From assembly GCA_018302135.1 (NCBI GenBank), contig JAGWAE010000002.1, positions 11,803-75,802 of the forward strand: 64,000 bases of DNA, in the 5' to 3' direction. Source of the stretch: Candidatus Woesearchaeota archaeon. GTDB lineage: Archaea > Nanobdellota > Nanobdellia > SCGC-AAA011-G17 > PNOQ01. This document shows positions 1 to 46,227 of the stretch, piece by piece; the first letter of the stretch is position 1; every line of letters begins with the position of its first letter. The notes beneath the pieces are model-generated. The model worked only from the letters and a program-made list of their open reading frames with translations. It searched no databases and was not told the origin of the DNA. Made by a program: the position numbers and the translations under genes.

Positions 1-22
1 AAAAAACTTAGACACTATTGAT

Positions 23-3000
23 TTGTCTGAAAATAAAGTTAGTTTGTTAAGTACATCGCTTAGTGATGTTACGCAAGATTCTATTATTTATGTAATGGAT
101 GGTGGTGAAAATGAAATTCAACTGGGCCAACCTTTGTTAAAAAATGTAAAAGATGAAAATGATAATTTTTATAGTTGGATTGTAAAAAATATTAATTCTA
201 ACAGTGTTGTTTTAGAACAAAAATTTGATAAAGCTAGTGGGTTAAGTAAAAAAACTATAACAATAGAGGTTAATAAAAATGGTGAATATATTCCTTACAG
301 TGATGGAACAACAAAATCAATTATGATAAAAGAAGTTAAAGTTGTTAGAAATGCTATCATAACAGTAACTCCTGGTTCTAAAGATAATTATGGTACTTCT
401 AGTTTTATAATACATATTCCAATTGAAAAAAGATTGTGGGATTGGACACCTGAAGAAATAGATAAAATGATTGCATCCACAGATAAAACTATAGATAAAG
501 TGGAGACAATAACTGAAAAATTAGGTAATGTTGTTAAAACTTGGAAAGGAATGTGTTTTGCTGTGTTTAGTTTTTTAGCTGTAAAAAATGCATTCTTCAA
601 TAATCCATTAGGAAGAAGATTGGCTGTTGAAAAATGGGAAGCAAAATGTAACGGTGCTATTAGTACTGGAACTCCCTTAAATGGTAAGGAGTATAGTGCA
701 GCCCAATTTGATAATTGTATGAGTGATAATTATGAAACTATTGAGCTTGATGTTAAAAAATCTGAAGAGCTGGTTAAGGAAACTAAAGAAGTAATGAAAG
801 ATTTTAACTGGGAAAAGAAAGAATCGGTTTCTAAAGCTGCAAGTGAACTTGGTGTAACTTCAGATGAACTTATATTGATGAACCAATATAACCAGCTAGA
901 GGCAGAAGATGTTAGAGATTCAGTATTCAATAAAAAATTTGGTGAAGGATTTAATGCTACTTCTTTTAATTTGAAGAAAGAGGAAACCAAAAAAATTCAT
1001 GAAAAAGTAACTGCTGCAGGATTAAATGTTAAAAATTCTGAAGATTTTAATAATATACAAGAAATTATAAATTCTATTAATGACAAGGGAGTTTCTTCAA
1101 AAGGGAATGATTTCTTTAGTAGTGAAGATGAAGTGGCAAAAAAAATAATAGGTGATGTAAATATTAACTATTTGGATTTAGACGGCAAAAAAACTGGTTA
1201 TAACATTGTAAAAGAAAATGAGGAATATTATTTATATCAGGATGGAACTAAGATTAAAGTTCAACCATATTTAAAAGAAGATAATCAACAGTTGACCAGT
1301 TCTTATGGTCAATTTTTTAAAACAAGTGATAATAAAATATATGTCGGTTCAGTAAATAGAGAATCATATTCTACTAGTTATTCTAACGGTAAGGGCAGTT
1401 TGATTTATGATGAGAATACAAAAAAACCTTTGTTTATACCAATAAAGTGGAGAAGAACACAAGAAATACCAAAGATAGACTATGCTAATTATATTGCTGT
1501 TGATCAAGAAATTATTGGTAGGGAATATCCTTATTCTGTTTGGAACGTTGGTTTAGATGGAAAAACTAATACGTTAGATGATCAGTTAGTTGTTAGTTCT
1601 GCTTTGTTGGCTAATCCAACAAATAATGAACTTAAAAGTTTAAAACAAGAAATAGAAAGAAGATATGAACGAGTTAATGTAAATCCAGATAAATCAGGAA
1701 AGAAAGTAAAAATTGATGGAGAAGAATATGCTGCACAACTAATTGGATCTAAAACTACAAGTGCAATTGGCGAATGTAGATATATGATGAGTGAAACTGA
1801 TTGTAAAATATTATTCGGAGTTTGTGACCCAGTAATGTGTCCAGCATCTAGATTTGATCTTGGTGGAAATTGGAAAGTAAGCAATGCAGTTCAAACTGGA
1901 ATAATTGGAAGTATAGTTTTAGGATTACCTAACTTTGATTTACCTTACGAACCTGTGCCGGTTTGTTTAACTGGAATACATGCAGGTTTAGAAAATATTG
2001 GAAGTATGTTGGGCAGTTTTAGAGATTGTTTAGAAACTGCAAAAGTTAAAGGAGAGTCTGTTGGTATTTGTAATGAAATAAGAAGTTTGTATATGTGCGA
2101 TATATTGTGGCAAGAAACATTGGCAATAGTTAATGTTTTTGGTGAATTAAATAAAATAATTTCTAATAAAATACTTGGAAAGTCTAACGGCGGAGGAGAA
2201 TACTTATCTTGGGATTCAAGTTGGAATCAGTTAACTAAGTCAGTAAGTTTCTTTACAAAAGATTATGCAAGTAGTGCATTTACAGCATTCCAGTCTAGAA
2301 GTACGAAAGAAATTGGAACTGAAATTTGTAAAGCTGCTATATTCGGAAAATATCCTGCTGGCGGAGATTTACTAGCACAATTAACAGAACCAGAAAGCCC
2401 AACACAATTTACTGGTTGGGTTGAAGAAGATAGGTATACTCAAGAAGAAGGAGGAAGGTCTTCATATAGAGTATATTACCATATTTATGCTGGAAGAAAT
2501 AATGATGTTAGATATAAAGTAATATTGAGAGATTTGCTTGGAAATGTAATGAGTGTAACTGATGATAATTATGCAACTGAAAGATTATTAAGAAAAGGAG
2601 AAAGTGTTGATAAAAGTTTCACAATAAATCCACCTGCTGGAAGAATTGGATTTACAAATATGTGTATAATAATAAATGGTGCTGAAACTTGTGGTTTTGG
2701 TAGTGTTTCTAGTAGTTTTTCAACCCAATATTTGAAAGATAAAATAATTGAAAGTCAAATTGGTAAGATAGAGTCTGCGGAAGATTGTAAACCAAGAACT
2801 TCTACTTACACACCAGGATTTACACAATCTGGGTTGGATATGAGATGTTCTGTTTATGATCCTGATGGTGTTGGTGATGATTGGGTTTGGACTGGAACTT
2901 GTGGATATGATGAAGAGAAAAGGTTCCAAGGAGATTGTTATTTATATAAAAAAGGAATTAATTTGTATGATGCTAGTTATAATATTTCTCAGCATATACC

Positions 3001-4948
3001 AAAACCAGATGGGCAAGAAACTGAAGAAAAATTTAGTGATAAAGAAATGATAGCATTAAAGAATCAATTTAATGAGCTAGTAAGTTTAGATGAAAAAACA
3101 ACAAGCACTAGTGAAAGATTAAATATTATTTCAAAATATAGAGAATTTATTAATTCTGAAATAACTACAGAAATAACTGCTTTAAGTTATTATAAAGTTG
3201 GTTATTTGTATTATAATATAGGAATAGATATGAAAACAAAAGTAGTAGAACAAGATAGAGCTAATGAAGAACAAGAAAGATTTAGTAAGTGTACTATAAC
3301 TTATGATGGAGATAAAAAAAGTACTGGTAAGGATGATAAAATTGTTCTTAAATTCATTGATAATGCTTGGATTATTAGTTCTTCTGGTGTATTATTAACG
3401 ACTGAATCAATAGATAATCCTATTAAAATAGAAGAAAAATTAGATTCATTCAGAATAGAAAATAAAGATTCTTGCAAACAATTGGATTCTTCTAAAGAAG
3501 AAGTTATAAAACAATTATGTGAAAATCTAGTCGGAAAAGGCTATGAAAATGGGCTTGCAATTATAGTTGATACAGCAAATGGAGAAAGTGATGATACTAT
3601 TCAAGTTGTAAATGTAAATGGTGAAAAATATGAACCTGAGCATAGAAAGGCTTCTGCATTAGAAATAATTAATTTGTGTGTTGGACAAACGGCGAAAGAA
3701 AGAGTAATAGACACAAGTGAGATGAATTGGTTAAGTGATATTGTTGGTCAAGAAATACTAATTAAAATTCAAGATGGAACAAAGAAGTGGTATGAATCTA
3801 AAGAATACACTTATTCTTTTTTGGATGGAAAAATTAATGGTGAAGACAAATCTTTTTCTGTTCAGAGTGTAAATGATTTGGTAAAATTAATTTTGGAAGG
3901 TGGATTAACAGGAAATTTGCCAAACATAGTAGTTATAGAAAATGAACAATATAAAACTTCTAGTACTTGGACAAGAAATTCTGGTGTTGATTTTAACATT
4001 TGGTTATTAAATGCTATGACTAATGCAGTTGTAGATGAACATTATCCTTTTGAATTAGAATTGAATAGGGGAAGGGATCTATTTGGTAAAAAAGGATTTA
4101 ATTTAGTTTGGAATGGTTTTGAATTAAGTAAAATGGAAGGTTATACAGATAGTAAATATCAAAATTCAGACTGGAATGGTTTTTTAAAACTAGTTTATAC
4201 ACTTTCAGATAAAGAAGATCTGAAATATTTAGAAATAAAATGTAAAGCCAGTGGTAAAATTACTAGATTAGATATAAATTTGGATGAAATTTATAAATAT
4301 TTTTCATCGGTTTCAAAATACATAGAGTCAAGTGGCTGGATAGAAAGGACAGTTGAAAGTTGTGGTATTGTTGAAGAAGTTGAGGTTGAAACTGGAGCTA
4401 TGGAATCAGTTATGAAATCTTATTCTACAAAAGGTGCATCTTTGTTTAATAAAGCATGTTATTGTGAAAATGATTGTGATGATTATGCAAAATGGATAGC
4501 AGAGTATGCACAGCAGTACAATGTTAATCCTATACTGTTACTTGCAATTATGATGAATGAAAATAATTGTGTTCAGAAAGAGGCAAAATCAAGTGCCGGT
4601 TGTGTTGGTTTGATGCAAATTTGTTCTTGGACACTATGTATTAAAGACATTCCTGAGTTGAACAAAGATAATTGGTGGGTTGTTTTAGGGAGTGATACTA
4701 AGGAATCTGCGGAAAAAAATATAAAATGTGGTGCCAGGATATTAAGGAATAGTTATTATGTATCCAAAGAAGGAGGTACTTTTCACCCATGTGTCGGCGA
4801 AGATAAAGTGTATACTGAATGGGAAGCTGCAGTAAGAGGTTATAATGGGTGGGATAATAGAAAATGTACCCCTGAAAATAGGAAACAGGATACATATGTT
4901 GAAGATGTGTTTGATATCTATGATGCCTTGAGTAGAAAAATAGTTTAA
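23..4948 (+). CDS. Giant protein (1641 aa or more, 5' end probably beyond window), Cys-rich, with C-terminal SLT/GH23 lytic transglycosylase-like domain
   Basis: Frame is open from position 2, with no upstream in-frame stop, and the first start candidate is TTG at 23, so the gene likely continues upstream. C-terminal about 130 aa carries the SLT signature: ILLLAIMMNENNCVQKEAKSSAGCVGLMQI (E...S...GLMQ catalytic motif) and AAVRGYNGWDN (AYNaG). The long N-terminal region has no recognisable domain. Confidence 0.8.
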   Translation: MSENKVSLLSTSLSDVTQDSIIYVMDGGENEIQLGQPLLKNVKDENDNFYSWIVKNINSNSVVLEQKFDKASGLSKKTITIEVNKNGEYIPYSDGTTKSIMIKEVKVVRNAIITVTPGSKDNYGTSSFIIHIPIEKRLWDWTPEEIDKMIASTDKTIDKVETITEKLGNVVKTWKGMCFAVFSFLAVKNAFFNNPLGRRLAVEKWEAKCNGAISTGTPLNGKEYSAAQFDNCMSDNYETIELDVKKSEELVKETKEVMKDFNWEKKESVSKAASELGVTSDELILMNQYNQLEAEDVRDSVFNKKFGEGFNATSFNLKKEETKKIHEKVTAAGLNVKNSEDFNNIQEIINSINDKGVSSKGNDFFSSEDEVAKKIIGDVNINYLDLDGKKTGYNIVKENEEYYLYQDGTKIKVQPYLKEDNQQLTSSYGQFFKTSDNKIYVGSVNRESYSTSYSNGKGSLIYDENTKKPLFIPIKWRRTQEIPKIDYANYIAVDQEIIGREYPYSVWNVGLDGKTNTLDDQLVVSSALLANPTNNELKSLKQEIERRYERVNVNPDKSGKKVKIDGEEYAAQLIGSKTTSAIGECRYMMSETDCKILFGVCDPVMCPASRFDLGGNWKVSNAVQTGIIGSIVLGLPNFDLPYEPVPVCLTGIHAGLENIGSMLGSFRDCLETAKVKGESVGICNEIRSLYMCDILWQETLAIVNVFGELNKIISNKILGKSNGGGEYLSWDSSWNQLTKSVSFFTKDYASSAFTAFQSRSTKEIGTEICKAAIFGKYPAGGDLLAQLTEPESPTQFTGWVEEDRYTQEEGGRSSYRVYYHIYAGRNNDVRYKVILRDLLGNVMSVTDDNYATERLLRKGESVDKSFTINPPAGRIGFTNMCIIINGAETCGFGSVSSSFSTQYLKDKIIESQIGKIESAEDCKPRTSTYTPGFTQSGLDMRCSVYDPDGVGDDWVWTGTCGYDEEKRFQGDCYLYKKGINLYDASYNISQHIPKPDGQETEEKFSDKEMIALKNQFNELVSLDEKTTSTSERLNIISKYREFINSEITTEITALSYYKVGYLYYNIGIDMKTKVVEQDRANEEQERFSKCTITYDGDKKSTGKDDKIVLKFIDNAWIISSSGVLLTTESIDNPIKIEEKLDSFRIENKDSCKQLDSSKEEVIKQLCENLVGKGYENGLAIIVDTANGESDDTIQVVNVNGEKYEPEHRKASALEIINLCVGQTAKERVIDTSEMNWLSDIVGQEILIKIQDGTKKWYESKEYTYSFLDGKINGEDKSFSVQSVNDLVKLILEGGLTGNLPNIVVIENEQYKTSSTWTRNSGVDFNIWLLNAMTNAVVDEHYPFELELNRGRDLFGKKGFNLVWNGFELSKMEGYTDSKYQNSDWNGFLKLVYTLSDKEDLKYLEIKCKASGKITRLDINLDEIYKYFSSVSKYIESSGWIERTVESCGIVEEVEVETGAMESVMKSYSTKGASLFNKACYCENDCDDYAKWIAEYAQQYNVNPILLLAIMMNENNCVQKEAKSSAGCVGLMQICSWTLCIKDIPELNKDNWWVVLGSDTKESAEKNIKCGARILRNSYYVSKEGGTFHPCVGEDKVYTEWEAAVRGYNGWDNRKCTPENRKQDTYVEDVFDIYDALSRKIV

Positions 4949-5032
4949 TGCAGAGGACAGGATTCGAACCTGCGAAGGCACTAAGCCATTAGGTCCTAAG
5001 CCTAACCCGTTTGACCGCTCCGGCACCTCTGC
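4949..5032 (-). tRNA. tRNA-Leu (anticodon UAG), long variable arm
   Basis: Reverse complement GCAGAGGTGCCGGAGCGGTCAAACGGGTTAGGCTTAGGACCTAATGGCTTAGTGCCTTCGCAGGTTCGAATCCTGTCCTCTGCA folds as a cloverleaf. Anticodon stem TTAGG/CCTAA, loop CTTAGGA, 15-nt variable arm, T-loop GGTTCGAATCC. No encoded CCA. Confidence 0.85.
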
Positions 5033-5097
5033 ACAAGAAGTTTAATATCAATTTTGTTTAAAAATGTTACTAAACTAACTAAAAATAATTAATACAA

Positions 5098-6273
5098 TTA
5101 GTTTTCTTCTCTTACTTGAGGATAAATAAATTCTTTACCTTCATAATTCCTAACTACAACTTCTTTATCGTCCATACTAACTATCCCTGCAGGTATTCTA
5201 ACTTTACCACCTCCACCAGGCGCATCAATTATAAAATCTGGAACTTCCATGCCACCAATATACCCACATAAGCTATTATAGATTTCCACTGCTTTTTCTA
5301 CTCTAGTTCTAAAATGATTTGTTCCTTTTACTGGGTCAGCTTGGTAAATATAATATGGTTTAACACGCATACTACCTAAACCAGACATCAACTTTTTCAT
5401 CGTTTCGGGGTTATCATTAACCCCTTTTAACAAAACAGTTTGACAACCGATAGGAATCCCTGCATCAGCTAACATATTGCAAGCTTTTCTGCTCTCGTCA
5501 GTTATTTCAGCAGGATGATTGAAGTGAGTGTTAACATATAACGGATGATATTTTCTTAACATACTTACTAATTCTGGAGTAACTCTCTGAGGTAATACAC
5601 ATGGAACTCTTGTGCCTATTCTTATTATTCCGTCTTCCCTTGTGCTGATTATATCATAGACAGATGAAATTATTCTTTCTAATGGAGCATCATCTAATAT
5701 GAATGGATCCCCACCAGATAAAATAACATCGTTAATTTCTTTAGTATTACTAATATATTCCAATGCTTTTTGAAGTTCTTCTTTTTTTGGTTGTTTCTTT
5801 GCATCTCCTACTTTTCTTTTTCTTGTGCAGAAACGACAATACATAGCACATTCATTTGAAACTCTTAGTAAAAGACGATTAGGATAACGGTGAGTTACAA
5901 GAGATGGAACGTTTTGTCTTGATTGGTGTTCAGGTTCTTCGTGTAATGGATCTTCCGTACAAACCTTATCTTCTAGTTCTATTGGATTAGGAATTGACTG
6001 TAAGTATAAAGGATCATTTATTCCTTCTATTAAACCTAAATAGTATGGATTAACTCTTGCAGGATATTGAGCGCAAACAGATTCTAGTGAACTTGCATCT
6101 AGTCCAAAATGATCTGCAATGCCTTGTGGGGAAGAAATGCTTTTTTTTAGAAGTTGTTTCCATTCTGGAGGATTGGAAAAATTTTGAGAAGTTTGATTTG
6201 TTGGGAGAAGTACAGGTTGTTTCAGCGTCGGATGTGGAGCCTCGCCTTGAATTATTATTGCTTTAGTATTCAT
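5098..6273 (-). CDS. Lysine 2,3-aminomutase family radical SAM protein (KamA/AblA/EpmB-like)
   Basis: CAMYCRFCTRKRK is the CxxxCxxC radical-SAM motif in the KamA-family context. Gly-rich PLP-binding-like region (DAPGGGGK) present. 391 aa. Confidence 0.75.
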   Translation of the reverse strand: MNTKAIIIQGEAPHPTLKQPVLLPTNQTSQNFSNPPEWKQLLKKSISSPQGIADHFGLDASSLESVCAQYPARVNPYYLGLIEGINDPLYLQSIPNPIELEDKVCTEDPLHEEPEHQSRQNVPSLVTHRYPNRLLLRVSNECAMYCRFCTRKRKVGDAKKQPKKEELQKALEYISNTKEINDVILSGGDPFILDDAPLERIISSVYDIISTREDGIIRIGTRVPCVLPQRVTPELVSMLRKYHPLYVNTHFNHPAEITDESRKACNMLADAGIPIGCQTVLLKGVNDNPETMKKLMSGLGSMRVKPYYIYQADPVKGTNHFRTRVEKAVEIYNSLCGYIGGMEVPDFIIDAPGGGGKVRIPAGIVSMDDKEVVVRNYEGKEFIYPQVREEN

Positions 6274-6362
6274 CTTACTTTTATTACGTGTTTTTACATG
6301 TTAATAATTTATAAAGTTTTCTATTATTTTATCGTCGAAAAAACTAAAAATTAGTTAAAATA

Positions 6363-6435
6363 AGCCTACGGAGGGATTTGAACCCACGACCTCCGCTTTA
6401 CTAAAGCGATGCTCTACCGGCTGAGCTACGTAGGC
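6363..6435 (-). tRNA. tRNA-Thr (encoded anticodon AGU)
   Basis: Reverse complement GCCTACGTAGCTCAGCCGGTAGAGCATCGCTTTAGTAAAGCGGAGGTCGTGGGTTCAAATCCCTCCGTAGGCT. Acceptor G1-C72, C2-G71, U73 is Thr-like. Anticodon loop TTAGTAA gives A34-G35-U36. One U-U mismatch in the T-stem. Confidence 0.65.
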
Positions 6436-6488
6436 AGTTATTTTTTAAGTATTGTATGTATATTAAAAAGTTTCTATAAACAAAAAAA

Positions 6489-6574
6489 TGTAGGGGAAGG
6501 GATTTGAACCCTCGAACCCACTAAGGGACAGGATCTTAAGTCCTGCGCATTTGACCAGGCTTTGCTACCCCTAC
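6489..6574 (-). tRNA. tRNA-Leu (anticodon UAA), long variable arm
   Basis: Reverse complement GTAGGGGTAGCAAAGCCTGGTCAAATGCGCAGGACTTAAGATCCTGTCCCTTAGTGGGTTCGAGGGTTCAAATCCCTTCCCCTACA. Anticodon stem CAGGA/TCCTG, loop CTTAAGA, long variable arm. Confidence 0.85.
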
Positions 6575-6612
6575 ATAACTTTAGAAGGAAATCATATTAT
6601 TTAAATAGCTTA

Positions 6613-7596
6613 CTAAATCTTTCTTAGAATTTGTTTCATACGATTTAATGTATCTATTGTTTCTTTTCCTTGTTTAAATTCTTTGTAATAAACAAAATAT
6701 CTTCTTATTATTTCTTGTTTTGCGGCTTCTCTACAAATTTTATCATTAATAATCCCGACTTTTGCCATGTTCAAACCCATATCAGTTGGAGATTTATAGC
6801 TAAAGTTATCTGAACTCGTCATTATACGCTTTAAAATTTTAAAGTTAAAAATATCTCTATTATAGTTTACTGCAGTTATACCATATGCTTTTTTATGATA
6901 AGTGTCTATCTTATTTTTATCATTTAAGTCTGCGGTTGCTGCTTCATAGGCAATGTTTACTGGGTGGTCTCTTTTTAAATTCCAAATTGGAAAAGTTTCA
7001 AACTTCGCAAAACTAGATTTAATATTATTCTTTCTTTCGTGGTTTATTTGTATTAAAGCAGTGGCCATTTTACCTGAGCCACCAGCTGGACCAGTTATAA
7101 TAACTAGTTTATTTTTTGTAGGAATATATGGTTGTTGTTCATATCCTTTTAAGATTAAACTAATATTATTGGGATATCCTTTAATTTCTCTGTGAATAAT
7201 TACTTTTACTCTTTGTTTTTTTAGTTTTCTAATAAATTGAGTAAGTTTTTGATTTTTATATAATGTTATAACTACAAAATTTACTTTTATGCCAAAACTT
7301 TTTAGGTCTTTAATATCTTTTAACGTTTGTTCATCATGAGTTAAGTTAAAATCACCAAGAACTTTCTTTTTTTGTATATTTTTTGCGTTAACGCAATATA
7401 TTATATCTCTATTTTTTAATGTTTTTAGAATTTTTATCTTATTCGTTGGGTCATAACCAGGTAAAACTCTTGACGCATGATAATCATAAACTAACTTTCC
7501 ACCAAATTCTAAGTAAAACTTTTCGTATTTTTTTATTCTATCTTTTATTGCTTTAGTTTGGGCTTTTATATATTTTTTTGAGTCAAAACCTTGCAT
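6613..7596 (-). CDS. Hypothetical protein with P-loop-like motif (ITGPAGGSGKM)
   Basis: 327-aa ORF flanked by tRNA genes. Gly-rich GxxGxSGK motif. No family recognised with confidence. Confidence 0.5.
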   Translation of the reverse strand: MQGFDSKKYIKAQTKAIKDRIKKYEKFYLEFGGKLVYDYHASRVLPGYDPTNKIKILKTLKNRDIIYCVNAKNIQKKKVLGDFNLTHDEQTLKDIKDLKSFGIKVNFVVITLYKNQKLTQFIRKLKKQRVKVIIHREIKGYPNNISLILKGYEQQPYIPTKNKLVIITGPAGGSGKMATALIQINHERKNNIKSSFAKFETFPIWNLKRDHPVNIAYEAATADLNDKNKIDTYHKKAYGITAVNYNRDIFNFKILKRIMTSSDNFSYKSPTDMGLNMAKVGIINDKICREAAKQEIIRRYFVYYKEFKQGKETIDTLNRMKQILRKI

Positions 7597-7639
7597 AACT
7601 TAATTCTAGATTAAATAATTTATAAATGTATTTAAAAAA

Positions 7640-7713
7640 AGCCCCAGAAGGGATTTGAACCCTCGGTCTATTGATTACGAATCAATTGCTCTACCGGACT
7701 AAGCTACTGGGGC
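7640..7713 (-). tRNA. tRNA-Thr (anticodon CGU)
   Basis: Reverse complement GCCCCAGTAGCTTAGTCCGGTAGAGCAATTGATTCGTAATCAATAGACCGAGGGTTCAAATCCCTTCTGGGGCT. Anticodon stem ATTGA/TCAAT, loop TTCGTAA, U73. Confidence 0.8.
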
Positions 7714-7818
7714 GTTTTTCTGACAAGTGAAACAAACAGGTTTACCTTTCTCGTAAGTTCCTTTTATCTTGCCCAAGAAAGTTTCTTCTATTTCTTTATT
7801 ACATTTTAAACATTTCAT
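7699..7818 (-). CDS. Small C4 zinc-ribbon protein (39 aa): MKCLKCNKEIEETFLGKIKGTYEKGKPVCFTCQKNAPVA
   Basis: CxxC-22-CxxC pattern. Not in the ORF track (under 60 aa). No obvious SD. The 3' end overlaps the 3' end of the tRNA at 7640-7713 by 15 nt. Confidence 0.35.
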   Translation of the reverse strand: MKCLKCNKEIEETFLGKIKGTYEKGKPVCFTCQKNAPVA

Positions 7819-7853
7819 ATTAAAAATAAAAAGTAGAGAATTAATATAGTTTT

Positions 7854-8279
7854 CTAAAATCTTAAATCTTCTTTGATTATCATATTATTTCTAGAAACCC
7901 CAAAGAATTTTTCTGCATGCTTTATAACAACTTCAGAATCAAAATCCTTGCATGAATATAAATCAAAGTTGATTCTATTCTTATTTGTAAAGGCATGGAA
8001 TGTTATGTGAGAATAATCTATTACAAGAACACCAGTTAAACCTGGGTTCTCTGGAATACCTTTAACAATTATTGGTGGGGTTAATGCTCCCATTTTAACT
8101 TTAGCAGGTAATTCTTTTAGAAAACTGTAAAATAAATGGTAATCGTTTGTTACTTCTTTAGATACACCATATACTTCAAGTCTTATATGTCTACCGTCTT
8201 TTTTAATGTCCTTTAAATTGACACCTTGACCAATCTTAAGATCATTCCAAGCAATCTCTTGATTTATATTAGATTTCAT
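7854..8279 (-). CDS. speH: Pyruvoyl-dependent S-adenosylmethionine decarboxylase proenzyme-like (SpeH/AdoMetDC class 1)
   Basis: 141 aa. GVLVIDYSHITFHAF resembles the E-S-H-I-x-I-H-T-W autoprocessing region. Size and FDLYSCK motif fit small archaeal/bacterial AdoMetDC. Confidence 0.6.
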   Translation of the reverse strand: MKSNINQEIAWNDLKIGQGVNLKDIKKDGRHIRLEVYGVSKEVTNDYHLFYSFLKELPAKVKMGALTPPIIVKGIPENPGLTGVLVIDYSHITFHAFTNKNRINFDLYSCKDFDSEVVIKHAEKFFGVSRNNMIIKEDLRF

Positions 8280-8395
8280 CTTTTAGTACCTCTAAAAAAA
8301 TATTTTTCATGTGAAAAATTATAGAAATAATTACTAGTTAAAATTTGGCAATGTTTGCGCCATCCGCCATAGTTTTCTAAAATAACATAACTCAT
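8276..8395 (-). CDS. Small ORF (39 aa, MSYVILENYGGWRKHCQILTSNYFYNFSHEKYFFRGTKR) translationally coupled to speH
   Basis: Strong SD (GGAGGT, 8-nt spacer) before ATG at 8395. Its TGA stop overlaps the speH ATG (ATGA). Not in the ORF track. Confidence 0.3.
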   Translation of the reverse strand: MSYVILENYGGWRKHCQILTSNYFYNFSHEKYFFRGTKR

Positions 8396-8599
8396 TCTAA
8401 AATACCTCCAAATCTTTTTTAAAAATTGAAAAGAGATTAGGATAGAAACGAATAGATACCAAATCGAACCAATGTCTTCCTTGTCTCATATAATCATCAA
8501 ACATTTATTATTTTTGGATTACGACGAACCCTGCCCCTCGTTATCAAATAGAATAAATTTAATTAAATAATTAGTTTATAAACTTTTTTATTTTCAGAA

Positions 8600-9259
8600 C
8601 TATTGAGAGATGGTTTGCTTGACAAAATACTTTTCTATGTAGTATCTTAACAGCTGTTCTGCCTCGGGAATACATGTTTTGTCTTGAATTCCAATTTTGG
8701 TTCTTTTTTGCAAGTCTTCAAAAGTTCTTGCACCATCCAAAACTGCCTCTTCGATATCGTGGTCAGTTATTTTTAGAATTTTATCGACGATTTTTATTCT
8801 GTCATTTTTTATTTTATCTAATTGATTTGTTTTTTTGTAGTAATCATTTATAGCGGCTCTTAATGCTTTGTCAGCTAGAACAGAACAATGAAATTTCCTT
8901 GTTGGTAAACCGTCAAGTCTGTTGGCAATGTCTTGAGGTTTAATTTCTAAAGCTTTTTCTATTTCCATCCCACCATTTTCAGTTATCATTGTAGAAAACA
9001 TAGATGTTGATGCGATTGCCGAGGCGCAGCCAAATGTTTGCCATTTACAGTCTATAATTTTATTATCTTTAACTTTAATCCACATTTTCATCATATCTCC
9101 ACAAGCAGGACTCCCTTCTTCTCCAATGCCATCAGCTTCTTTAGTTAACTTTTCTGATTCTTCTTTAGTTTTAGCTAAATTTTTTGGCTCAAAGAAATGT
9201 TTTTTTACAGTTTCAGAATAAAACCATTCTGTTCCGTCTTTGGATTTGACATCATACAT
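8600..9259 (-). CDS. iscU: Fe-S cluster scaffold protein IscU/NifU-like with C-terminal extension
   Basis: Conserved cysteine ligands ACGDMMK, FGCASAIA and HCSVLA. Overlaps iscS by 8 nt. Confidence 0.85.
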   Translation of the reverse strand: MYDVKSKDGTEWFYSETVKKHFFEPKNLAKTKEESEKLTKEADGIGEEGSPACGDMMKMWIKVKDNKIIDCKWQTFGCASAIASTSMFSTMITENGGMEIEKALEIKPQDIANRLDGLPTRKFHCSVLADKALRAAINDYYKKTNQLDKIKNDRIKIVDKILKITDHDIEEAVLDGARTFEDLQKRTKIGIQDKTCIPEAEQLLRYYIEKYFVKQTISQ

Positions 9260-10433
9260 TTTTTATATCCTCTATTTTTAGGTTTACTGGAGAAATATTT
9301 CTTAATTCCTGTACTATTTTAGGAATTATTTGTAAAACATAATCTATTTCTTCTTTTGTTGTATTTTTGCTTAAAGAAAATCTTATACTACCATGAGCTG
9401 CTTCGTATGGTCTACCTAGCGCTAGAATAACATGACTAGGATCTAGAGATTTAGATGTACATGCTGAGCCCGAAGAAGCACAAACCCCTTCAGAATCTAA
9501 TTTTAGCAAAACTGCTTCCCCCTCTATATTTAAGAAAGTAATATTAACGTTATTTGGTAATCTTTTTTCATTATCACCATTTAGGATTGTGTTTTCTATT
9601 TTTAATAAATTTTCAATAAAATAATCTCTTAATGGTGTTAATTTCTTTTTGTAATCTTCTTTTCCTTTTTGTGCTATTTCTAAAGCTTTTGCAAAACCTA
9701 CTATGGCTGCAATATTTTCTGTACCAGATCTTAAATTGAATTCTTGACCCCCACCATGAATTAATGGCTCTATTCTTATACCTTCTTTTTTATATAAACA
9801 GCCCACTCCTTTCGGGCCATAAATTTTACTTCCATTAATGCTTAATAGATCTACATTTAAATCCTGAACATCTAAAGATTCTGAATTTGCTGCTTGACAT
9901 GCATCAGTATGGAATAAAATATTATTTTCTTTTGCTATTTTTGCTATTTCTTTTATTGGTTGAATTGTTCCGATTTCATTGTTAGCATACATAACACTAA
10001 TTAAAATTGTTTCTTTTTTTATTGCATTTTTTATTTTCTCTGGGTTTACAATTCCATTGGGTTCTACTGGAACATAAGTAACTTCAAAACCTTGTTTTTC
10101 TAAAAATTCTAAAGTGTCTAAAACAGCATGATGCTCAATAGTAGTAGAAATTATATGTTTTCCTTTATTTTTTAATTTATTTACAACTCCTTTTATCGCT
10201 AAATTAACACTTTCTGTTCCAGAACCAGTAAAAATTATTTCATCTGAATGACAATTTAATATTTTGGCAACTTTACTTCTAGAAAGATTTAATGCATGGG
10301 CTGCTATCAATCCTTTAGCGTGCATACTTCCCGCGTTACCATATTCGATTTGGAAATATCTGTGCATTTCCAAATAAACTAATGGATCTACTGGAGTAGA
10401 TGATGATGTATCTAAATATATTGTTCTGTTCAT
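9252..10433 (-). CDS. iscS: Cysteine desulfurase IscS/NifS (PLP-dependent)
   Basis: Class V aminotransferase fold. Active-site loop SSGSACTS, PLP-lysine region SINGSKIYGPKG. Confidence 0.9.
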   Translation of the reverse strand: MNRTIYLDTSSSTPVDPLVYLEMHRYFQIEYGNAGSMHAKGLIAAHALNLSRSKVAKILNCHSDEIIFTGSGTESVNLAIKGVVNKLKNKGKHIISTTIEHHAVLDTLEFLEKQGFEVTYVPVEPNGIVNPEKIKNAIKKETILISVMYANNEIGTIQPIKEIAKIAKENNILFHTDACQAANSESLDVQDLNVDLLSINGSKIYGPKGVGCLYKKEGIRIEPLIHGGGQEFNLRSGTENIAAIVGFAKALEIAQKGKEDYKKKLTPLRDYFIENLLKIENTILNGDNEKRLPNNVNITFLNIEGEAVLLKLDSEGVCASSGSACTSKSLDPSHVILALGRPYEAAHGSIRFSLSKNTTKEEIDYVLQIIPKIVQELRNISPVNLKIEDIKNV

Positions 10434-23938: not shown

Positions 23939-25186
23939 ATGGACCTTGGTGATTATATAGAAGTCAGAACTGATTCTGAAGTTTTTAAAGGAACTTTAAT
24001 GCCAGATTCTTTGAGTAATAAATTGATTTTAAAGTTAGATTCTGGTTATAATATTGGAATTGATAAGAAAAAAATAAAAGAAAAAAAAGTTATAAAAGAA
24101 ATGGTACAAAAAGAAAGAAGACCAAACAAAATTAAGTTTTCTAAAGAGTTACCAACTATATTAATATTGCATACTGGCGGGACAATTGCTTCTAAAGTAA
24201 GTTATAAAACTGGTGGTGTAATAGCTAAGTTTAGTCCAGAAGAAATTTTAGAGCTTTTTCCAGAGATAAGTAATATTGCTAATATCAAAACCAAACTAAT
24301 TTCTAATATATTTTCTGAAGATATGGGATTTAAAGATTATAATAAGTTAGTTTTGCAAATTAAAAGGGAGTGTAAAAATGTTGAAGGTATTATAATAACT
24401 CATGGAACAGATACTATGCATTATACTTCTGCTGCTTTGAGCTTTATGTTGGAAAATTTAGGATTTCCTGTGATTTTAGTTGGATCTCAAAGAAGTTCGG
24501 ATAGAGGAAGTTCGGATGCAGCCTTAAATTTAGTTTGCGCAGCACAATTTATTGTAAAATCTAATTATGCTGGTGTTGCTATTTGCATGCATTCTAGTAT
24601 GAATGATGATAATTGTTATATTTTACCCGGGTTAAAGGTTAAAAAGTTGCATAGTTCAAGAAGAGATGCTTTTCAAACTGTGAATAGTAAGCCAATTGCT
24701 ACAGTTAATTTTAATGGTGAGATAAAATATATCAGTCATGATTTTATGAGAAAAGATAAAAGTAAAGAATTAGTAGTTAACTTGCTTAGCAAAAATCTTA
24801 AAATTGGTATTTTGAAAGTTCACCCAAATATGCATTATTCTGAAATTTCTAAATACAAGACTTTTGATGGATTGATAATAGAAGGAACTGGGCTAGGACA
24901 TGTTCCGATAAATGAAAATGTTAAAGTTTACAATGCTTTGAAAAGTTTAAATATTCCAATTGTAATGACTAGTCAAACTGTTTTTGGAAGAGTTAACTTA
25001 AATGTTTATTCAACTGGCAGAAAATTGCAAGAATTTGTTCTTTCTGGGTCTGATATGACTTCAGAAACTGCTTTTGTCAAACTTGCTTGGTTACTTAGCA
25101 ATAAGAAAGACGTTAAATTAATCTCTAGTAATTTGAAAGGTGAGATTAATGAAAGAATTTCTGATGAATTTTTGAAGGAATATTAG
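23939..25186 (+). CDS. gatD: Glutamyl-tRNA(Gln) amidotransferase subunit D (GatD), asparaginase-like
   Basis: N-terminal GatD domain plus L-asparaginase motifs ILHTGGTIAS and IIITHGTDTM. Confidence 0.85.
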   Translation: MDLGDYIEVRTDSEVFKGTLMPDSLSNKLILKLDSGYNIGIDKKKIKEKKVIKEMVQKERRPNKIKFSKELPTILILHTGGTIASKVSYKTGGVIAKFSPEEILELFPEISNIANIKTKLISNIFSEDMGFKDYNKLVLQIKRECKNVEGIIITHGTDTMHYTSAALSFMLENLGFPVILVGSQRSSDRGSSDAALNLVCAAQFIVKSNYAGVAICMHSSMNDDNCYILPGLKVKKLHSSRRDAFQTVNSKPIATVNFNGEIKYISHDFMRKDKSKELVVNLLSKNLKIGILKVHPNMHYSEISKYKTFDGLIIEGTGLGHVPINENVKVYNALKSLNIPIVMTSQTVFGRVNLNVYSTGRKLQEFVLSGSDMTSETAFVKLAWLLSNKKDVKLISSNLKGEINERISDEFLKEY

Positions 25187-25959
25187 TTTTTGTAACCAAT
25201 TATCTTATACACTAGTTTAGCTGCTGTGTAATCAGATACTATATTATTTGAAGGACATAGTTCAACAATATCACAACCAACTACATTTCTTTTTTTGAAA
25301 ACTTCTTCTAATAAATCTGTGACTTGCTTGAATTGTAATCCATTTGGTTCTGGAGTTCCGACATCGGGCAAAACTGAAGGATCAAAAACATCTAAGTCTA
25401 TAGTAATGTAAACATTTTTCTTTAAAGTTTTAATTATTTTTTTTATATCAAAATTATTACCAAAGAAAGTGTTAATTTTATTCTTTTTTATGAAAGATAG
25501 TTCATCTTTGTCTAAACTTCTAACTCCAACTTGAGTTATATTTTTGTTAAATTCTGAAATTCTGTGCATAACACATGCATGATTTAGTTTTTTACCTTCA
25601 AAACTATCTTTTAAATCTGCATGAGCATCTAGTTGTAATATTGAAAGATCTTCTTGATTTAATCTTTTGATTAAAGGTAATGTTATTGTGTGTTCACCAC
25701 CTAAAGCAATAAGAAATTTATTTGTTTTTATATTTTCTAATTTTTTTAAGTCTATTATTGGTTTTAATGTTGCTATACCTATAATATAAGGTTCTAATTT
25801 TAGTTCATAATCGTATAATTCTAGTTCATTTGATGCCTTTAATATTGCATTTGGACCATTTATTGTTCCTTTTTTGTATGAAGTTGTTTTTTCGTAAGGA
25901 ACTGGAAGTATTAATATCTTAGATTCTGCAAAATTTGGTAGATTCATGAATGTTTCCAT
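25183..25959 (-). CDS. Arginase/agmatinase-family ureohydrolase (likely agmatinase)
   Basis: Mn-binding motifs GGEHTIT, LQLDAHADL, ITIDLDVFDP. Confidence 0.75.
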   Translation of the reverse strand: METFMNLPNFAESKILILPVPYEKTTSYKKGTINGPNAILKASNELELYDYELKLEPYIIGIATLKPIIDLKKLENIKTNKFLIALGGEHTITLPLIKRLNQEDLSILQLDAHADLKDSFEGKKLNHACVMHRISEFNKNITQVGVRSLDKDELSFIKKNKINTFFGNNFDIKKIIKTLKKNVYITIDLDVFDPSVLPDVGTPEPNGLQFKQVTDLLEEVFKKRNVVGCDIVELCPSNNIVSDYTAAKLVYKIIGYKN

Positions 25960-27635: not shown

Positions 27636-28571
27636 ATGGAATTTGTTAAAGATTTGAGATGGAAGAAAGGAATGCAAGTAGATGAGCTAGTTAGTAGTTT
27701 GGGTAAGGTAGGATTTCAAAGTATTGAACTAAAAAAAGCTCAAGAAAACATTGTTAAGATGAAAAAAGATGGAGCTAAGGTTTATTTAACATTTACTTCC
27801 AATATGGTTACTTCTGGATTAAGAGGATTTTTTGCCCAATTAATAAAATTAAAAATTGTAGATGTTATAGTCACAACTATTGGTGGGATTGAAGAAGATA
27901 TAATGAAAGCACATGGTGAAAATTTTATAATCGGTGGGTTTGACACAGATGATATTGAATTACATGAAAAAGGAATAAATAGAGTGGGTAACTTGTTTAT
28001 TAGAAATGAGAGTTATTCTAAATTTGAAGATCTAATGAATCCTATTATTAAAAAATTATATGAAAAAAAGCATAGGTGGGCACCTTCTGAAATGTTTAAA
28101 GAAATTGGTTTAAGTTTAAAGGATGAAAATTCTATTTTATATCAAGCAGCTGAGAACAATGTACCAATATTTTGTCCTGCTGTAACTGATGGTGCATTTG
28201 GTTTTCATTTATTTATGTTCCAACAAAATAATCCTGATTTTATTGTAGATGTTGTAAAAGATTTTCAGAATATATTATTATCAACATCACAGGATGAGAA
28301 AAAAGGAATGATTAGTTTAGGTGGGAGTATTAGTAAACATCATGCAATACTAGCTTGTTTGTTAAATGGTGGGCTAGACTATGCTGTTTATATGACAACT
28401 GCAAGCCATTCTAGTGGAAGTATGTCTGGAGCTACAACTAAAGAAGCCAAAAGCTGGGGAAAAATTAAAGATGATTCCGATGCTGTGACTGTTATTGGAG
28501 ATGTTTCTATAACCTTTCCATTAGTTATGATTTCTGTTTTGGAAGAGTTGAGTAGAGAAGGATTAATTTAG
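27636..28571 (+). CDS. dys: Deoxyhypusine synthase
   Basis: TFTSNMVTSGLRGFF...DVIVTTIGGIEEDIMK and GGSISKHH, the active-site Lys region. Confidence 0.8.
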   Translation: MEFVKDLRWKKGMQVDELVSSLGKVGFQSIELKKAQENIVKMKKDGAKVYLTFTSNMVTSGLRGFFAQLIKLKIVDVIVTTIGGIEEDIMKAHGENFIIGGFDTDDIELHEKGINRVGNLFIRNESYSKFEDLMNPIIKKLYEKKHRWAPSEMFKEIGLSLKDENSILYQAAENNVPIFCPAVTDGAFGFHLFMFQQNNPDFIVDVVKDFQNILLSTSQDEKKGMISLGGSISKHHAILACLLNGGLDYAVYMTTASHSSGSMSGATTKEAKSWGKIKDDSDAVTVIGDVSITFPLVMISVLEELSREGLI

Positions 28572-45972: not shown

Positions 45973-46227
45973 ATGGCCTCACCTTTACCAAAATGGATTA
46001 TGCAAAGATATTCTATCCTTTGGAATACTTTTCATGATAAAGAGTTTGATCATGATGCTGCTTTTAACTTATTGAATAATGAGAAAACGGTTAGTATTGC
46101 TATTTCTAAATTAAGAAAAAATGGTTGGTTGGAAATTAAACTAGATGAAAATGATGCTAGAAGAAGATTGTATAAATTAAAAAGTCCAGAACAAGCTGTA
46201 AAAGAAATAGGTGAGAAAAATGAATAA
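45973..46227 (+). CDS. Small hypothetical protein (84 aa), overlaps start of the giant surface protein gene
   Basis: Possible winged-helix-like segment (TVSIAISKLRKNGWLEI). 17-nt overlap with the downstream gene. Confidence 0.4.
   Translation: MASPLPKWIMQRYSILWNTFHDKEFDHDAAFNLLNNEKTVSIAISKLRKNGWLEIKLDENDARRRLYKLKSPEQAVKEIGEKNE

What the first reader, a model, noticed from the sequence alone, without database searches (positions are those of the whole stretch)
23..4948. Giant (more than 1641 aa) Cys-rich protein ending in a lytic transglycosylase (SLT/GH23) domain in an organism without obvious murein synthesis genes
The C-terminal 130 aa contains the SLT catalytic signature (E-S...GLMQI...AYNGW-like). 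The remaining 1500 aa have no recognisable domain and many cysteines. The ORF appears to continue beyond the 5' window edge. A peptidoglycan-cleaving domain in a probable archaeon with no cell-wall genes in this window suggests a host/prey-directed murein hydrolase or adhesion/penetration factor.
Basis: partly seen in the sequence, partly recalled or inferred. Interest (0 to 1): 0.6.

Follow-up and report, generated by a model that had tools for sequence, protein, structure and literature searches.

The report
Giant secreted archaeal protein with lysozyme-like tail
This is the last 80% of a 2,068-residue secreted protein of a tiny Woesearchaeota (DPANN) archaeon that carries a bacterial-type cell-wall-cutting domain, a protein family already described and thought to help these archaea attach to or feed on bacteria.

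Summary
Window 2-4948 (+) is an open frame encoding residues 421-2068 of a 2,068-aa protein already deposited as 'transglycosylase SLT domain-containing protein [Candidatus Woesearchaeota archaeon]'. The gene starts 1,259 nt upstream of the window and opens with a signal-peptide-like sequence. The C-terminal domain matches Pfam SLT/GH23. Its catalytic Glu (E1940, nt 4559-4561) is kept in all homologues aligned.

Three points were not in the four papers consulted:
1. The SLT domain is optional, found in about 30% of members and at different positions. The family is defined by an N-terminal beta-rich domain, a short conserved motif and a Cys-rich 400-aa core. None of these match Pfam, PDB sequences or, where modelled, PDB folds. 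Other members carry phage-tail lysozyme, NlpC/P60, GH3, GDSL, DUF2272, ankyrin or LRR modules.
2. A ~620-660-aa gene with a conserved prepilin-like N-terminus (KRGQVT + hydrophobic helix) lies immediately upstream in 61 of 61 testable genomes.
3. Both proteins are strongly depleted in N-glycosylation sequons.

Best reading: a surface-tethered, host-directed wall-breaching device. This is inferred, not shown.

The parts
2..4948 (+). 3' 80% of the giant gene. It encodes residues 421-2068 of the 2,068-aa protein P0001. The stop codon is at 4946-4948. The gene begins 1,259 nt upstream of the window.
422..616 (+). Conserved short motif 'H4' (aa 561-625: IEKRLW.WTPEEIDK...KTWKG.C...KNAFF). It is present in 121 of 123 full-length relatives and is not hydrophobic enough for a transmembrane helix.
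617..1747 (+). Variable linker region (aa 626-1002). It is Cys-poor (0.5%) and conserved only among close relatives.
1748..2956 (+). Family-defining Cys-rich core (aa 1003-1405; 15 Cys). Conserved motifs are CDPV.CP, GIIGS, P.CL.G..AG, G..VG.C.EI, GGEY, YHIYAG, CGF and GTCG. AlphaFold2 suggests a helical half and a beta-sandwich half at low confidence. There is no match in Pfam, PDB or phage collections.
2957..4435 (+). Post-core variable region (aa 1406-1898), with no recognisable domain. In other family members this part carries different modules.
4436..4945 (+). C-terminal GH23/SLT module (aa 1899-2068; 10 Cys), including a C.C...C stretch ahead of the catalytic fold. The Pfam SLT hit spans nt 4496-4870.
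4559..4561 (+). Codon of the predicted catalytic Glu (E1940, in 'IMMNENNC'). It is invariant in 9 of 9 aligned SLT domains and occupies the profile column where wild-type MltC has Glu and its Gln variant (4cfo) has Gln. It is followed by Asn instead of the usual Ser.
4607..4621 (+). GLMQI motif (SLT motif II). The G and Q are invariant in the alignment.
4838..4852 (+). GYNGW motif (equivalent of SLT motif 'AYN.G'). The Y is invariant.

Best explanation
The ORF encodes most of a 2,068-aa protein that a Woesearchaeota (DPANN, Nanoarchaeota) cell most likely exports through the Sec pathway.

It is one half of a strictly conserved two-gene unit. The upstream ~656-aa protein overlaps it by 4 nt (ATGA). 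That protein has a conserved prepilin-like N-terminus (M..KRG|QVT followed by about 20 hydrophobic residues). It probably holds the complex at the cell surface, either as a membrane anchor or in a pilus-like fibre.

The giant protein itself has no membrane anchor. It consists of:
- a conserved scaffold: an N-terminal beta-rich domain, a short motif and a Cys-rich (probably disulfide-bonded) core;
- a variable C-terminal 'payload' region.

In this organism the payload is a GH23/SLT domain with an intact catalytic Glu. I propose that this domain cleaves the MurNAc-GlcNAc glycan strands of a bacterial partner's peptidoglycan at the contact site, opening the wall for attachment or nutrient uptake.

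Shown here: the gene structure, the domain and its catalytic residues, the conserved operon, the taxonomic restriction, the modular payloads, and the sequon depletion.

Inferred: export, tethering by the upstream protein, the bacterial target, and enzymatic activity.
For: - Full-length protein and N-terminal signal-like sequence MKNKIFAIFVMFLIISSPVSA|F, which is the only hydrophobic segment.
- Nearly all 87 tabulated full-length relatives (those without SLT) begin with a similar basic-plus-hydrophobic leader.
- SLT is above the Pfam cut-off. The SLT profile hits MltC at 3e-12, EmtA at 3e-9, goose lysozyme at 2e-8 and Slt70 at 4e-7. The Glu column coincides with the MltC catalytic residue. E, G..Q and Y are invariant.
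- The upstream gene lies on the same strand immediately before the giant gene in 61 of 61 species-representative loci with enough upstream sequence. The same holds in L001-L007, L088 and L089. The 4-nt overlap is confirmed.
- The upstream N-terminus [KR][KR]GQ[VI][TS] plus a hydrophobic stretch is conserved in 49 sequences that are otherwise only about 31% identical.
- N-x-S/T sequons are depleted to 0.36 of expectation in 123 giants and to 0.21 in 65 upstream proteins. Control motifs lie at 0.89-1.22 and cytoplasmic ORFs at 0.97. This implies both proteins meet the glycosylation machinery outside the cell and share one constraint.
- Payload modularity. By the family HMM, SLT is in 36 of 123 full-length relatives and at varying positions. 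Pfam found none in 20 of the HMM-negative ones. Other members carry Phage_lysozyme2, NLPC_P60, Glyco_hydro_3, Ank, LRR, DUF2272 and GDSL lipase.
- No murein-synthesis family was hit among 39 window ORFs of 140 aa or more (42 incl. three annotated in L001); six shorter or overlapping ones were not scanned. None was found in the 10 kb upstream.
- The published hypothesis is the same.
Against: - No experimental data exist for any family member.
- The Ser that normally follows the catalytic Glu is Asn in this protein (ENN; relatives have ES), so activity could be altered.
- Most family members lack any recognisable lytic domain. The conserved function of the scaffold therefore need not involve peptidoglycan.
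- Woesearchaeota hosts are unknown and may be archaea without murein.
- The prepilin-like reading of the upstream protein rests on a sequence pattern recalled from archaeal pilins. No prepilin peptidase or assembly ATPase was seen near the locus. No other protein in the window carries the motif.
- The core model is of low confidence (pLDDT 55).
- The better N-terminal domain model (pLDDT 78) has no structural neighbour. The scaffold's role is therefore unsupported by homology.
Confidence: 0.5

Rival explanations
1. It is a freely released bacteriolytic enzyme. The protein is secreted into the medium and lyses neighbouring bacteria to scavenge nutrients, without forming a cell-attached apparatus.
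For: - Signal peptide and no membrane anchor or transmembrane segment in the giant protein.
- Lytic payloads occur in several relatives.
- The 'vampiristic' proposal is in the literature.
Against: - The partner gene with a hydrophobic, prepilin-like N-terminus is strictly conserved and overlaps the giant gene by 4 nt in the loci examined (61 of 61 loci). That argues for a tethered complex.
- About 1,900 aa of conserved non-enzymatic scaffold is hard to justify for a diffusible lysin.
- Many members have no lytic domain.
Confidence: 0.15
2. It is a general structural component of the archaeon's own envelope: an S-layer-like or spike complex built from an anchor protein plus a large outer protein, as in SlaB/SlaA. 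The SLT domain would be a lineage-specific decoration of minor importance.
For: - Relatives were found in at least 532 stretches of the species-representative genome collection. All 80 loci shown were from Woese-, Pace- or Nanoarchaeota or unclassified 'archaeon' records.
- There are 1,099 cluster representatives.
- Chromosomal synteny next to LSM/L37e/S8e/TFIIB is conserved.
- The two-gene anchor-plus-large-protein layout holds throughout.
- SLT is optional.
Against: - Archaeal S-layer proteins are typically heavily N-glycosylated (general knowledge). This pair is strongly depleted in sequons (0.36 and 0.21).
- A different 1,818-aa protein in the same window has the classical surface-protein look: signal peptide, beta-helix repeats, 80 sequons and C-terminal transmembrane segments.
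- The variable, often lytic or protein-binding C-terminal modules look like interaction payloads rather than lattice elements.
Confidence: 0.15
3. The GH23 domain does not cut bacterial murein. It may bind glycan without catalysis, or act on another GlcNAc-containing polymer such as chitin-like material or the archaeon's own glycans.
For: - The E-S motif is changed to E-N in this protein.
- The profile also matches goose-type and C-type lysozymes and alpha-lactalbumin, so specificity cannot be read from sequence.
- From general knowledge, GH23 includes some chitinases.
Against: - The catalytic Glu and the GLMQ and YN motifs are all retained under clear purifying selection across relatives.
- The best matches are bona fide bacterial lytic transglycosylases.
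- Other members carry further murein-specific modules: NlpC/P60, phage tail lysozyme and DUF2272.
Confidence: 0.1
4. It is a housekeeping autolysin that remodels the archaeon's own murein-like wall.
For: SLT enzymes have this role in bacteria. The whole genome was not examined.
Against: - The organism is an archaeon.
- No Mur ligase, MraY, MurG or PBP family was hit among 39 window ORFs of 140 aa or more (42 incl. three annotated in L001) or in the 10 kb upstream.
- The SLT domain is missing from about two thirds of orthologous proteins in sister species. That is incompatible with an essential wall-remodelling role.
- Lysozyme-type enzymes do not cut pseudomurein (general knowledge).
Confidence: 0.03
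5. It is a viral or mobile-element protein, such as a tape-measure or ejection protein with a lytic transglycosylase domain (compare T7 gp16 or phage gp41), sitting in a prophage.
For: The SLT profile matches a phage tape-measure protein (2.7e-8) and T7 gp16 (1.5e-3). There is a weak PHROG 'lytic tail fiber' hit (E = 0.003).
Against: - The core and the SLT domain have no tblastn match in 50,697 phage records.
- The core has no relative in 2.9 million IMG/VR contigs.
- The N-terminal domain has no structural neighbour in BFVD.
- Neighbours are housekeeping genes in conserved synteny across relatives of 36-60% identity.
- No integrase or capsid family was hit among the window ORFs scanned or the annotated genes of the 10 kb upstream.
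Confidence: 0.02

Closest known systems
[quoted passage not shown] 2021, PMC8204110; first noted by Rinke 2013 and Castelle 2015; GH23 proteins in Vigneron et al. 2022, PMC9723730)
   Same: Same lineage, same size class (2,000-3,000 aa), same SLT/GH23 domain and predicted extracellular location. This exact protein is deposited as 'transglycosylase SLT domain-containing protein [Candidatus Woesearchaeota archaeon]'.
   Different: Nothing differs at the level of the finding. The papers I read describe the family by its SLT domain only. They do not mention that SLT is optional, the conserved scaffold domains, the obligatory upstream partner or the sequon depletion.
Bacterial family-1 lytic transglycosylases (MltC, EmtA/MltE, Slt70) and goose-type lysozyme (GH23)
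   Same: Same catalytic fold by profile (E = 3e-12 to 4e-7). The catalytic Glu is aligned, and the GLMQ and YN motifs are present.
   Different: - The domain is about 8% of a 2,068-aa archaeal protein.
- It has 10 Cys in 170 aa.
- Glu is followed by Asn, not Ser.
- There is no lipobox or periplasmic context.
- The producer shows no murein genes in the region examined.
Phage tape-measure and internal virion proteins with a lytic transglycosylase module (phage gp41 TMP, T7 gp16)
   Same: A very long, mostly non-enzymatic protein that carries a small SLT module to breach a bacterial wall from outside. This is a functional analogy.
   Different: There is no sequence or structural relation outside the SLT module. 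The gene is chromosomal in conserved synteny and absent from phage and IMG/VR collections.
Modular effector proteins with a conserved delivery part and swappable C-terminal modules (polymorphic toxins such as Rhs/CDI; from general knowledge)
   Same: A conserved N-terminal and central scaffold carries lineage-variable C-terminal enzymatic or binding modules: SLT, Phage_lysozyme2, NlpC/P60, GH3, GDSL, DUF2272, Ank and LRR.
   Different: No Rhs/YD, PT-HINT or immunity-gene features were seen. The modules are wall-degrading or binding rather than intracellular toxins. In some members the SLT module is inserted N-terminal to the core.
Archaeal surface proteins with class III (prepilin-type) signal peptides, such as type IV pilins and Sulfolobus 'bindosome' sugar-binding proteins (from general knowledge). 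This comparison is for the upstream partner.
   Same: A short basic leader ends in [KR]G, followed by Gln and about 20 hydrophobic residues, conserved across 49 sequences. The extracellular domain behind it is large.
   Different: No Pfam pilin family is hit. No prepilin peptidase or assembly ATPase was found nearby. The protein is 620-660 aa, far larger than a structural pilin.
SPEARE proteins of Nanohaloarchaeota (giant DPANN surface proteins with enzymatic domains proposed to open the host envelope; from general knowledge, Hamm et al. 2019)
   Same: A giant secreted DPANN protein combining adhesion-like regions with a hydrolytic domain, proposed to act on the host envelope.
   Different: It is unrelated in sequence, has different domains (protease and nuclease versus GH23), and its host is archaeal rather than the bacterial host presumed here.

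Membership tests
SLT / GH23 lytic transglycosylase domain (Pfam PF01464) | Match to the family profile above the curated threshold | tested here: met
   33.5 bits against a cut-off of 21.3, E = 3.5e-8, fragment residues 1499-1623. The same hit appears on the full-length protein.
SLT / GH23 lytic transglycosylase domain (Pfam PF01464) | Catalytic glutamate at the end of the first conserved helix | tested here: met
   E1940 is invariant in 9 of 9 aligned domains. The column aligns with the Glu of MltC and with the Gln of its E-to-Q mutant 4cfo.
SLT / GH23 lytic transglycosylase domain (Pfam PF01464) | Ser immediately after the catalytic Glu (E-S motif) | tested here: not met
   This protein has E-N-N. 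All eight relatives in the alignment have E-S. The consequence for activity is unknown.
SLT / GH23 lytic transglycosylase domain (Pfam PF01464) | G-L-M-Q and A-Y-N-x-G motifs | tested here: met
   GLMQI at nt 4607-4621 and GYNGW at nt 4838-4852. G, Q and Y are invariant.
SLT / GH23 lytic transglycosylase domain (Pfam PF01464) | Cleavage of the MurNAc-GlcNAc bond with formation of 1,6-anhydroMurNAc (as opposed to hydrolysis) | not testable with these tools
   This needs an enzyme assay. The profile matches both lytic transglycosylases and goose lysozyme.
DPANN large extracellular lytic-transglycosylase proteins (fam00969, Castelle et al. 2021) | Woesearchaeota or Pacearchaeota origin, 2,000-3,000 aa, SLT domain, predicted extracellular | tested here: met
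   Source name and size, archaeal context, SLT, signal peptide, description of the family.
DPANN large extracellular lytic-transglycosylase proteins (fam00969, Castelle et al. 2021) | Actual inclusion in the published cluster | not testable with these tools
   The member list of fam00969 was not available to me.
Phage tape-measure or ejection proteins with an SLT module | Located in a viral genome or prophage structural module, with relatives in virus collections | tested here: not met
   No match in phage records, IMG/VR or BFVD folds. Neighbours are housekeeping genes.
Secretion-system-associated lytic transglycosylases (VirB1, EtgA type) | Small protein encoded within a type III or type IV secretion gene cluster | tested here: not met
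   There is a weak EtgA match to the SLT fold only. The protein is 2,068 aa. No secretion-system genes lie in the window or flanks.
Class III (prepilin-type) signal peptide proteins (upstream partner) | Short basic leader, Gly at -1, then about 20 hydrophobic residues | tested here: met
   M..[KR][KR]G|Q[VI][TS] followed by a hydrophobic stretch in 49 sequences. The motif definition is recalled from the literature and not scored with a model.
Class III (prepilin-type) signal peptide proteins (upstream partner) | Prepilin peptidase (PibD/EppA/FlaK) and assembly ATPase in the genome; cleavage demonstrated | not tested
   Neither is in the window or the flanks. The whole genome was not available.
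Two-component archaeal S-layer (SlaA/SlaB type) | Abundant lattice protein, usually heavily N-glycosylated | tested here: not met
   Sequons are depleted to 0.36 (giant) and 0.21 (partner) of expectation. Another surface protein in the window is enriched, with 80 observed against 53.5 expected. Abundance is not testable.

The most novel reading that the evidence does not exclude
The SLT protein is one variant of a two-protein surface device found in all testable Woesearchaeales and Pacearchaeales loci and not described in the four papers consulted. A prepilin-like anchor protein is paired with a ~2,000-aa, Cys-rich, deliberately non-glycosylated scaffold of novel fold. Its exchangeable C-terminal (or inserted) modules include lytic transglycosylase, phage-tail lysozyme, NlpC/P60, GH3, lipase, ankyrin and LRR. 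These modules would determine which host envelope the episymbiont can breach. The strong avoidance of N-glycosylation sites in both partners would reflect a mechanical requirement, such as threading through the host's peptidoglycan mesh or tight polymerisation.
Probability: 0.3. Interest if true: 0.7.

Novelty: already known. Interest (0 to 1): 0.35.

Why it matters
Woesearchaeota and Pacearchaeota are among the most diverse and abundant uncultured archaea, and nobody knows who their hosts are or how they attach.

A murein-cutting domain on a secreted archaeal protein is one of the few genomic hints that some of them live on bacteria rather than on other archaea. That hint is already in the literature, so the finding itself adds little.

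What may help the field is the anatomy worked out here:
- A conserved two-gene unit was found in all 61 testable genomes. It gives a defined target for antibodies, cryo-ET, metaproteomics and heterologous expression.
- The variable payload modules give a possible read-out of host type.
- The shared sequon depletion is a testable and unexplained signature of the pair.

Tried and rejected
- **AlphaFold2 of the Cys-rich core** (23-sequence alignment) gave a low-confidence model (mean pLDDT 55.5, pTM 0.33). Foldseek against PDB returned only generic beta-sandwich hits, none at E <= 1e-3. I draw no conclusion from them.
- **AlphaFold2 of the N-terminal domain** was better (pLDDT 78.2, pTM 0.65). 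It had no neighbour in PDB or BFVD.
- **Sequence profiles against PDB chains.** The core, the N-terminal domain and the upstream protein found nothing meaningful.
- **Other family libraries.** NCBIfam and PHROGs gave only sub-threshold noise.
- **Prophage or mobile-element origin** was considered and rejected (synteny).
- **Autolysin for the cell's own wall** was considered and rejected on present evidence.
- **Transmembrane helices.** Hydrophobic stretches in the H4 motif and the core do not reach the hydropathy threshold.
- **Other prepilin-like N-termini** in the window, sought to calibrate the motif: none found.
- **Tandem repeats** in the gene: none.
- **Apparently short 'stand-alone core' proteins** (for example P0011) are fragments of frameshifted or truncated genes on low-coverage contigs.
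- **'Bacterial' source names** for two relatives are mis-binned archaeal contigs.
Full report

Yes. The ORF listing reports a 1,641-codon ORF at 23..4948 (+), counted from its first TTG. The frame is in fact open from window base 2. At this base composition (about 29% G+C, P(stop) = 0.083 per codon) a run of 1,648 open codons has a chance probability of about 1e-62.

A database search found the complete protein. P0001 is 2,068 aa, 100% identical over the whole fragment, and deposited as 'transglycosylase SLT domain-containing protein [Candidatus Woesearchaeota archaeon]'. It occurs on at least 14 metagenomic contigs. The window is identical (0 mismatches in 14,948 nt) to contig L001 from position 11260. 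The gene therefore starts 1,259 nt upstream of the window, and the window encodes residues 421-2068.

Pfam SLT (PF01464) matches fragment residues 1499-1623 above the curated cut-off (33.5 against 21.3 bits). No Pfam, NCBIfam or PHROGs family explains the rest.

- The first motif is E-N, not E-S.
- Cysteine enrichment is confined to two regions:

| Region | Cys content |
|---|---|
| Core (aa 1003-1405) | 3.7% |
| SLT module | 5.9% |
| aa 421-1002 | 0.5% |
| Other ORFs of the window | 0.95% |

**2. The organism and the surroundings**

The window and the 10 kb upstream carry archaeal markers. These are TFIIB, ribosomal proteins S8e and L37e, LSM, TrmB, ATP-dependent DNA ligase, GatD/GatE, deoxyhypusine synthase and FtsZ. 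The source names say Woesearchaeota or Nanoarchaeum.

I scanned 39 window ORFs of 140 aa or more and found no Mur ligase, MraY, MurG, PBP or pseudomurein enzyme. L001's annotation covers three more; six shorter or overlapping ORFs were not scanned. This covers about 74 kb, not the whole genome. A tRNA-Leu on the opposite strand abuts the stop codon. There are no tandem repeats in the gene.

**3. The SLT module**

I aligned the SLT regions of nine family members. Invariant residues are the catalytic Glu (E1940 of P0001, nt 4559-4561), the G and Q of GLMQ, an Asn, and the Tyr of the (A/G)YN motif.

The profile of this alignment gave these matches among solved structures:

| Structure | E-value |
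|---|---|
| MltC | 3e-12 |
| EmtA | 3e-9 |
| Goose lysozyme (full-length alignment) | 2e-8 |
| Phage tape-measure protein | 3e-8 |
| Slt70 | 4e-7 |
| T7 gp16 | 1.5e-3 |

The profile's Glu column aligns with the Glu of wild-type MltC and with the Gln of its E-to-Q variant 4cfo. This confirms that the column is the catalytic position.

Whether the enzyme is a lytic transglycosylase or a hydrolase, and what it cuts, cannot be decided from sequence.

**4. What the rest of the protein is**

Alignment of ten full-length relatives of 29-60% identity shows that the best-conserved part is not the SLT domain. It is a 400-aa Cys-rich core (aa 1003-1405; nt 1748-2956). The mean column identity is 61% in a five-sequence core alignment. 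It is 41% in the ten-sequence full-length alignment and 36% in the nine-sequence SLT alignment.

A profile of the core was searched against 1.84 billion cluster representatives. It found 1,099 proteins, 933 of them below 1e-30. They are typically 1,800-2,700 aa long, with the core at about residues 1,200-1,700.

Block HMMs were applied to the 123 retrieved proteins of at least 1,700 aa:
- 120 have the N-terminal domain, 121 the short H4 motif (aa 561-625) and all 123 the core.
- Only 36 have SLT. In two of these it is inserted ahead of H4 and the core rather than at the C-terminus.
- Pfam found no SLT in 20 of the SLT-negative members, which validates the negative calls.

Those 20 members instead carried ankyrin repeats (2), Phage_lysozyme2, Glyco_hydro_3, NLPC_P60, LRR and DUF4347 (one each). 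The other 13 of the 20 had no Pfam hit. Close relatives of the window protein add DUF2272 and a GDSL lipase after the SLT domain.

The architecture is therefore a conserved scaffold plus exchangeable payload. The SLT is this organism's payload.

**5. Export**

P0001 begins MKNKIFAIFVMFLIISSPVSA|F. This is the only segment passing a hydropathy threshold, so there is no transmembrane anchor. Nearly all 87 tabulated full-length relatives start with a similar leader.

**6. A conserved partner gene**

In L001 a 656-aa gene ends in the sequence ATGA, which contains the giant gene's start codon. The same arrangement holds in relatives of 36-38% identity, on a frameshifted low-coverage contig and on two contigs wrongly binned as bacterial.

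A scan of one genome per species found at least 532 stretches encoding a relative of the core. All 80 loci shown came from Woese-, Pace- or Nanoarchaeota or unclassified 'archaeon' records. In 61 of 61 loci with enough upstream sequence, the partner gene lies immediately upstream on the same strand. SLT was present in 12 of 33 loci with enough downstream sequence: 8 after the core and 4 before it.

The partner has no Pfam, NCBIfam or PDB match. Its N-terminus is strikingly conserved: M..[KR][KR]GQ[VI][TS] followed by about 20 hydrophobic residues in 49 sequences. To my knowledge this is the pattern of archaeal class III (prepilin-type) signal peptides. I did not score it with a model, and I found no peptidase gene nearby, so this reading is an inference.

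**7. An unexpected shared property**

N-glycosylation sequons (N-x-S/T) are strongly under-represented in both proteins:

| Sequence set | Observed | Expected | Ratio |
|---|---|---|---|
| P0001 | 4 | ~20 | 0.2 |
| Its upstream partner | 0 | ~7 | 0 |
| 123 full-length giants | 773 | 2,156 | 0.36 |
| 65 upstream partners | 71 | 344 | 0.21 |
| 17 cytoplasmic ORFs of the window | 46 | 47.3 | 0.97 |
| Other giant surface protein (46211-51667) | 80 | 53.5 | 1.5 |

Four control motifs (reverse motif, N-x-A/G, D-x-S/T, Q-x-S/T) lie between 0.89 and 1.22.

Directional avoidance of sequons makes sense only for proteins that meet the oligosaccharyltransferase, which means exported proteins, and that must stay glycan-free. 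This supports export and ties the two proteins together functionally. It also argues against an S-layer role. I cannot explain why the constraint exists.

**8. Structure and remote homology**

- AlphaFold2 of the core was poor (pLDDT 55.5). Its fold hits were generic beta-sandwiches below significance.
- The N-terminal domain modelled reasonably (pLDDT 78.2, pTM 0.65, mostly beta). It has no neighbour in PDB or BFVD.
- Two further fold libraries were unavailable.
- Neither the core nor the SLT module has a tblastn match in phage records. The core has no relative in IMG/VR.

**9. Comparison with what is known**

Large extracellular SLT-domain proteins of Woese- and Pacearchaeota have been published:
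- They were first noted in three genomes (Rinke 2013; Castelle 2015).
- They were described as family fam00969, 'up to 3,000 aa', widespread in both lineages, and proposed to attach to and degrade bacterial walls (PMC8204110).
- GH23 'large lytic murein transglycosylases' formed part of a 'vampiristic' predation proposal (PMC9723730).
- Later studies repeat this.

The papers I could read do not mention the optional nature of the SLT, the scaffold domains, the obligatory partner gene or the sequon depletion. I cannot exclude that these are described elsewhere.

**10. Verdict**

The feature is real, correctly located and correctly typed. As a finding it is already known.

The most likely mechanism has confidence of about 0.5. 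A Sec-exported, Cys-rich (probably disulfide-stabilised) giant protein is held at the cell surface by its prepilin-like partner. It presents a GH23 domain that opens the peptidoglycan of a bacterial host or prey.

Main rivals:
- free secreted lysin (0.15)
- general envelope component (0.15)
- non-murein or non-catalytic role of the GH23 domain (0.10)
- autolysin (0.03)
- viral origin (0.02)

The rest (about 0.05) is unassigned.

Interest is 0.35. It is low for the finding as stated. It is raised somewhat by the conserved two-gene device and its unexplained avoidance of glycosylation sites, both of which are directly testable.

Noticed in passing
window 46211-51667 (+): A second giant ORF (1,818 aa). 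It has a signal peptide, right-handed beta-helix/NosD repeats, 80 N-x-S/T sequons (53.5 expected), C-terminal hydrophobic segments and a PRC-barrel domain. It looks like a classical glycosylated archaeal surface protein or adhesin and contrasts with the sequon-poor SLT protein.
   Followed up: partly
window 54244-54852 and 54741-55469 (+), next to 55466-56746 (+): A class II aminoacyl-tRNA synthetase (Asp/Asn/Lys type) appears split into two overlapping ORFs: OB-fold plus the start of the catalytic domain, then the rest. It is followed directly by an intact paralogue. This could be a frameshift, a pseudogene or an assembly error.
   Followed up: no
window 56793-57941 (+): The S-adenosylmethionine synthetase here has the three domains of the bacterial/eukaryotic MetK type (PF00438, PF02772, PF02773) in an archaeal genome. 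From memory, archaea usually have a different type.
   Followed up: no
window 7854-8279, 25183-25959, 27636-28571, 29530-30537, 36675-37475: Polyamine and hypusine genes are scattered through the window: AdoMet decarboxylase, an arginase-family enzyme, deoxyhypusine synthase, an Orn/Arg decarboxylase-like protein and a spermidine-synthase-like methyltransferase.
   Followed up: no
window 4948-7713 (-): Four tRNA genes (Leu, Thr, Leu, Thr) are interleaved with a lysine-2,3-aminomutase-like radical SAM gene and a DUF1846 gene. The first tRNA-Leu abuts the stop codon of the giant gene on the opposite strand.
   Followed up: no
L088 (Ga0376277_0015672, protein named 'Parcubacteria group bacterium') and L089 (DATJPO010000003.1, 'Candidatus Omnitrophota bacterium'): Contigs carrying family members but attributed to bacteria encode TFIIB, S8e, S3Ae and GINS. 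They are archaeal contigs mis-binned into bacterial MAGs.
   Followed up: yes
L007 (ctg862693_2x_l), 4565-9620: On this 2x-coverage long-read contig the giant gene is broken into at least six called ORFs, so short 'stand-alone' hits such as P0011 and P0198 are artefacts. Separately, P0025 ends in CLLYTSPSPRDR, which looks like translated sequencing adapter.
   Followed up: partly
L005 6415-7968 and L006 6422-7969 (+): In the more distant relatives an extra 515-517-aa gene precedes the partner gene. It has no signal peptide and no Pfam or NCBIfam hit, and it is absent from the window's own lineage.
   Followed up: partly
L049 3418-4113: This is the only locus where a match to the partner-protein profile lies downstream of the core instead of upstream. 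It could be a paralogue or a rearrangement.
   Followed up: no
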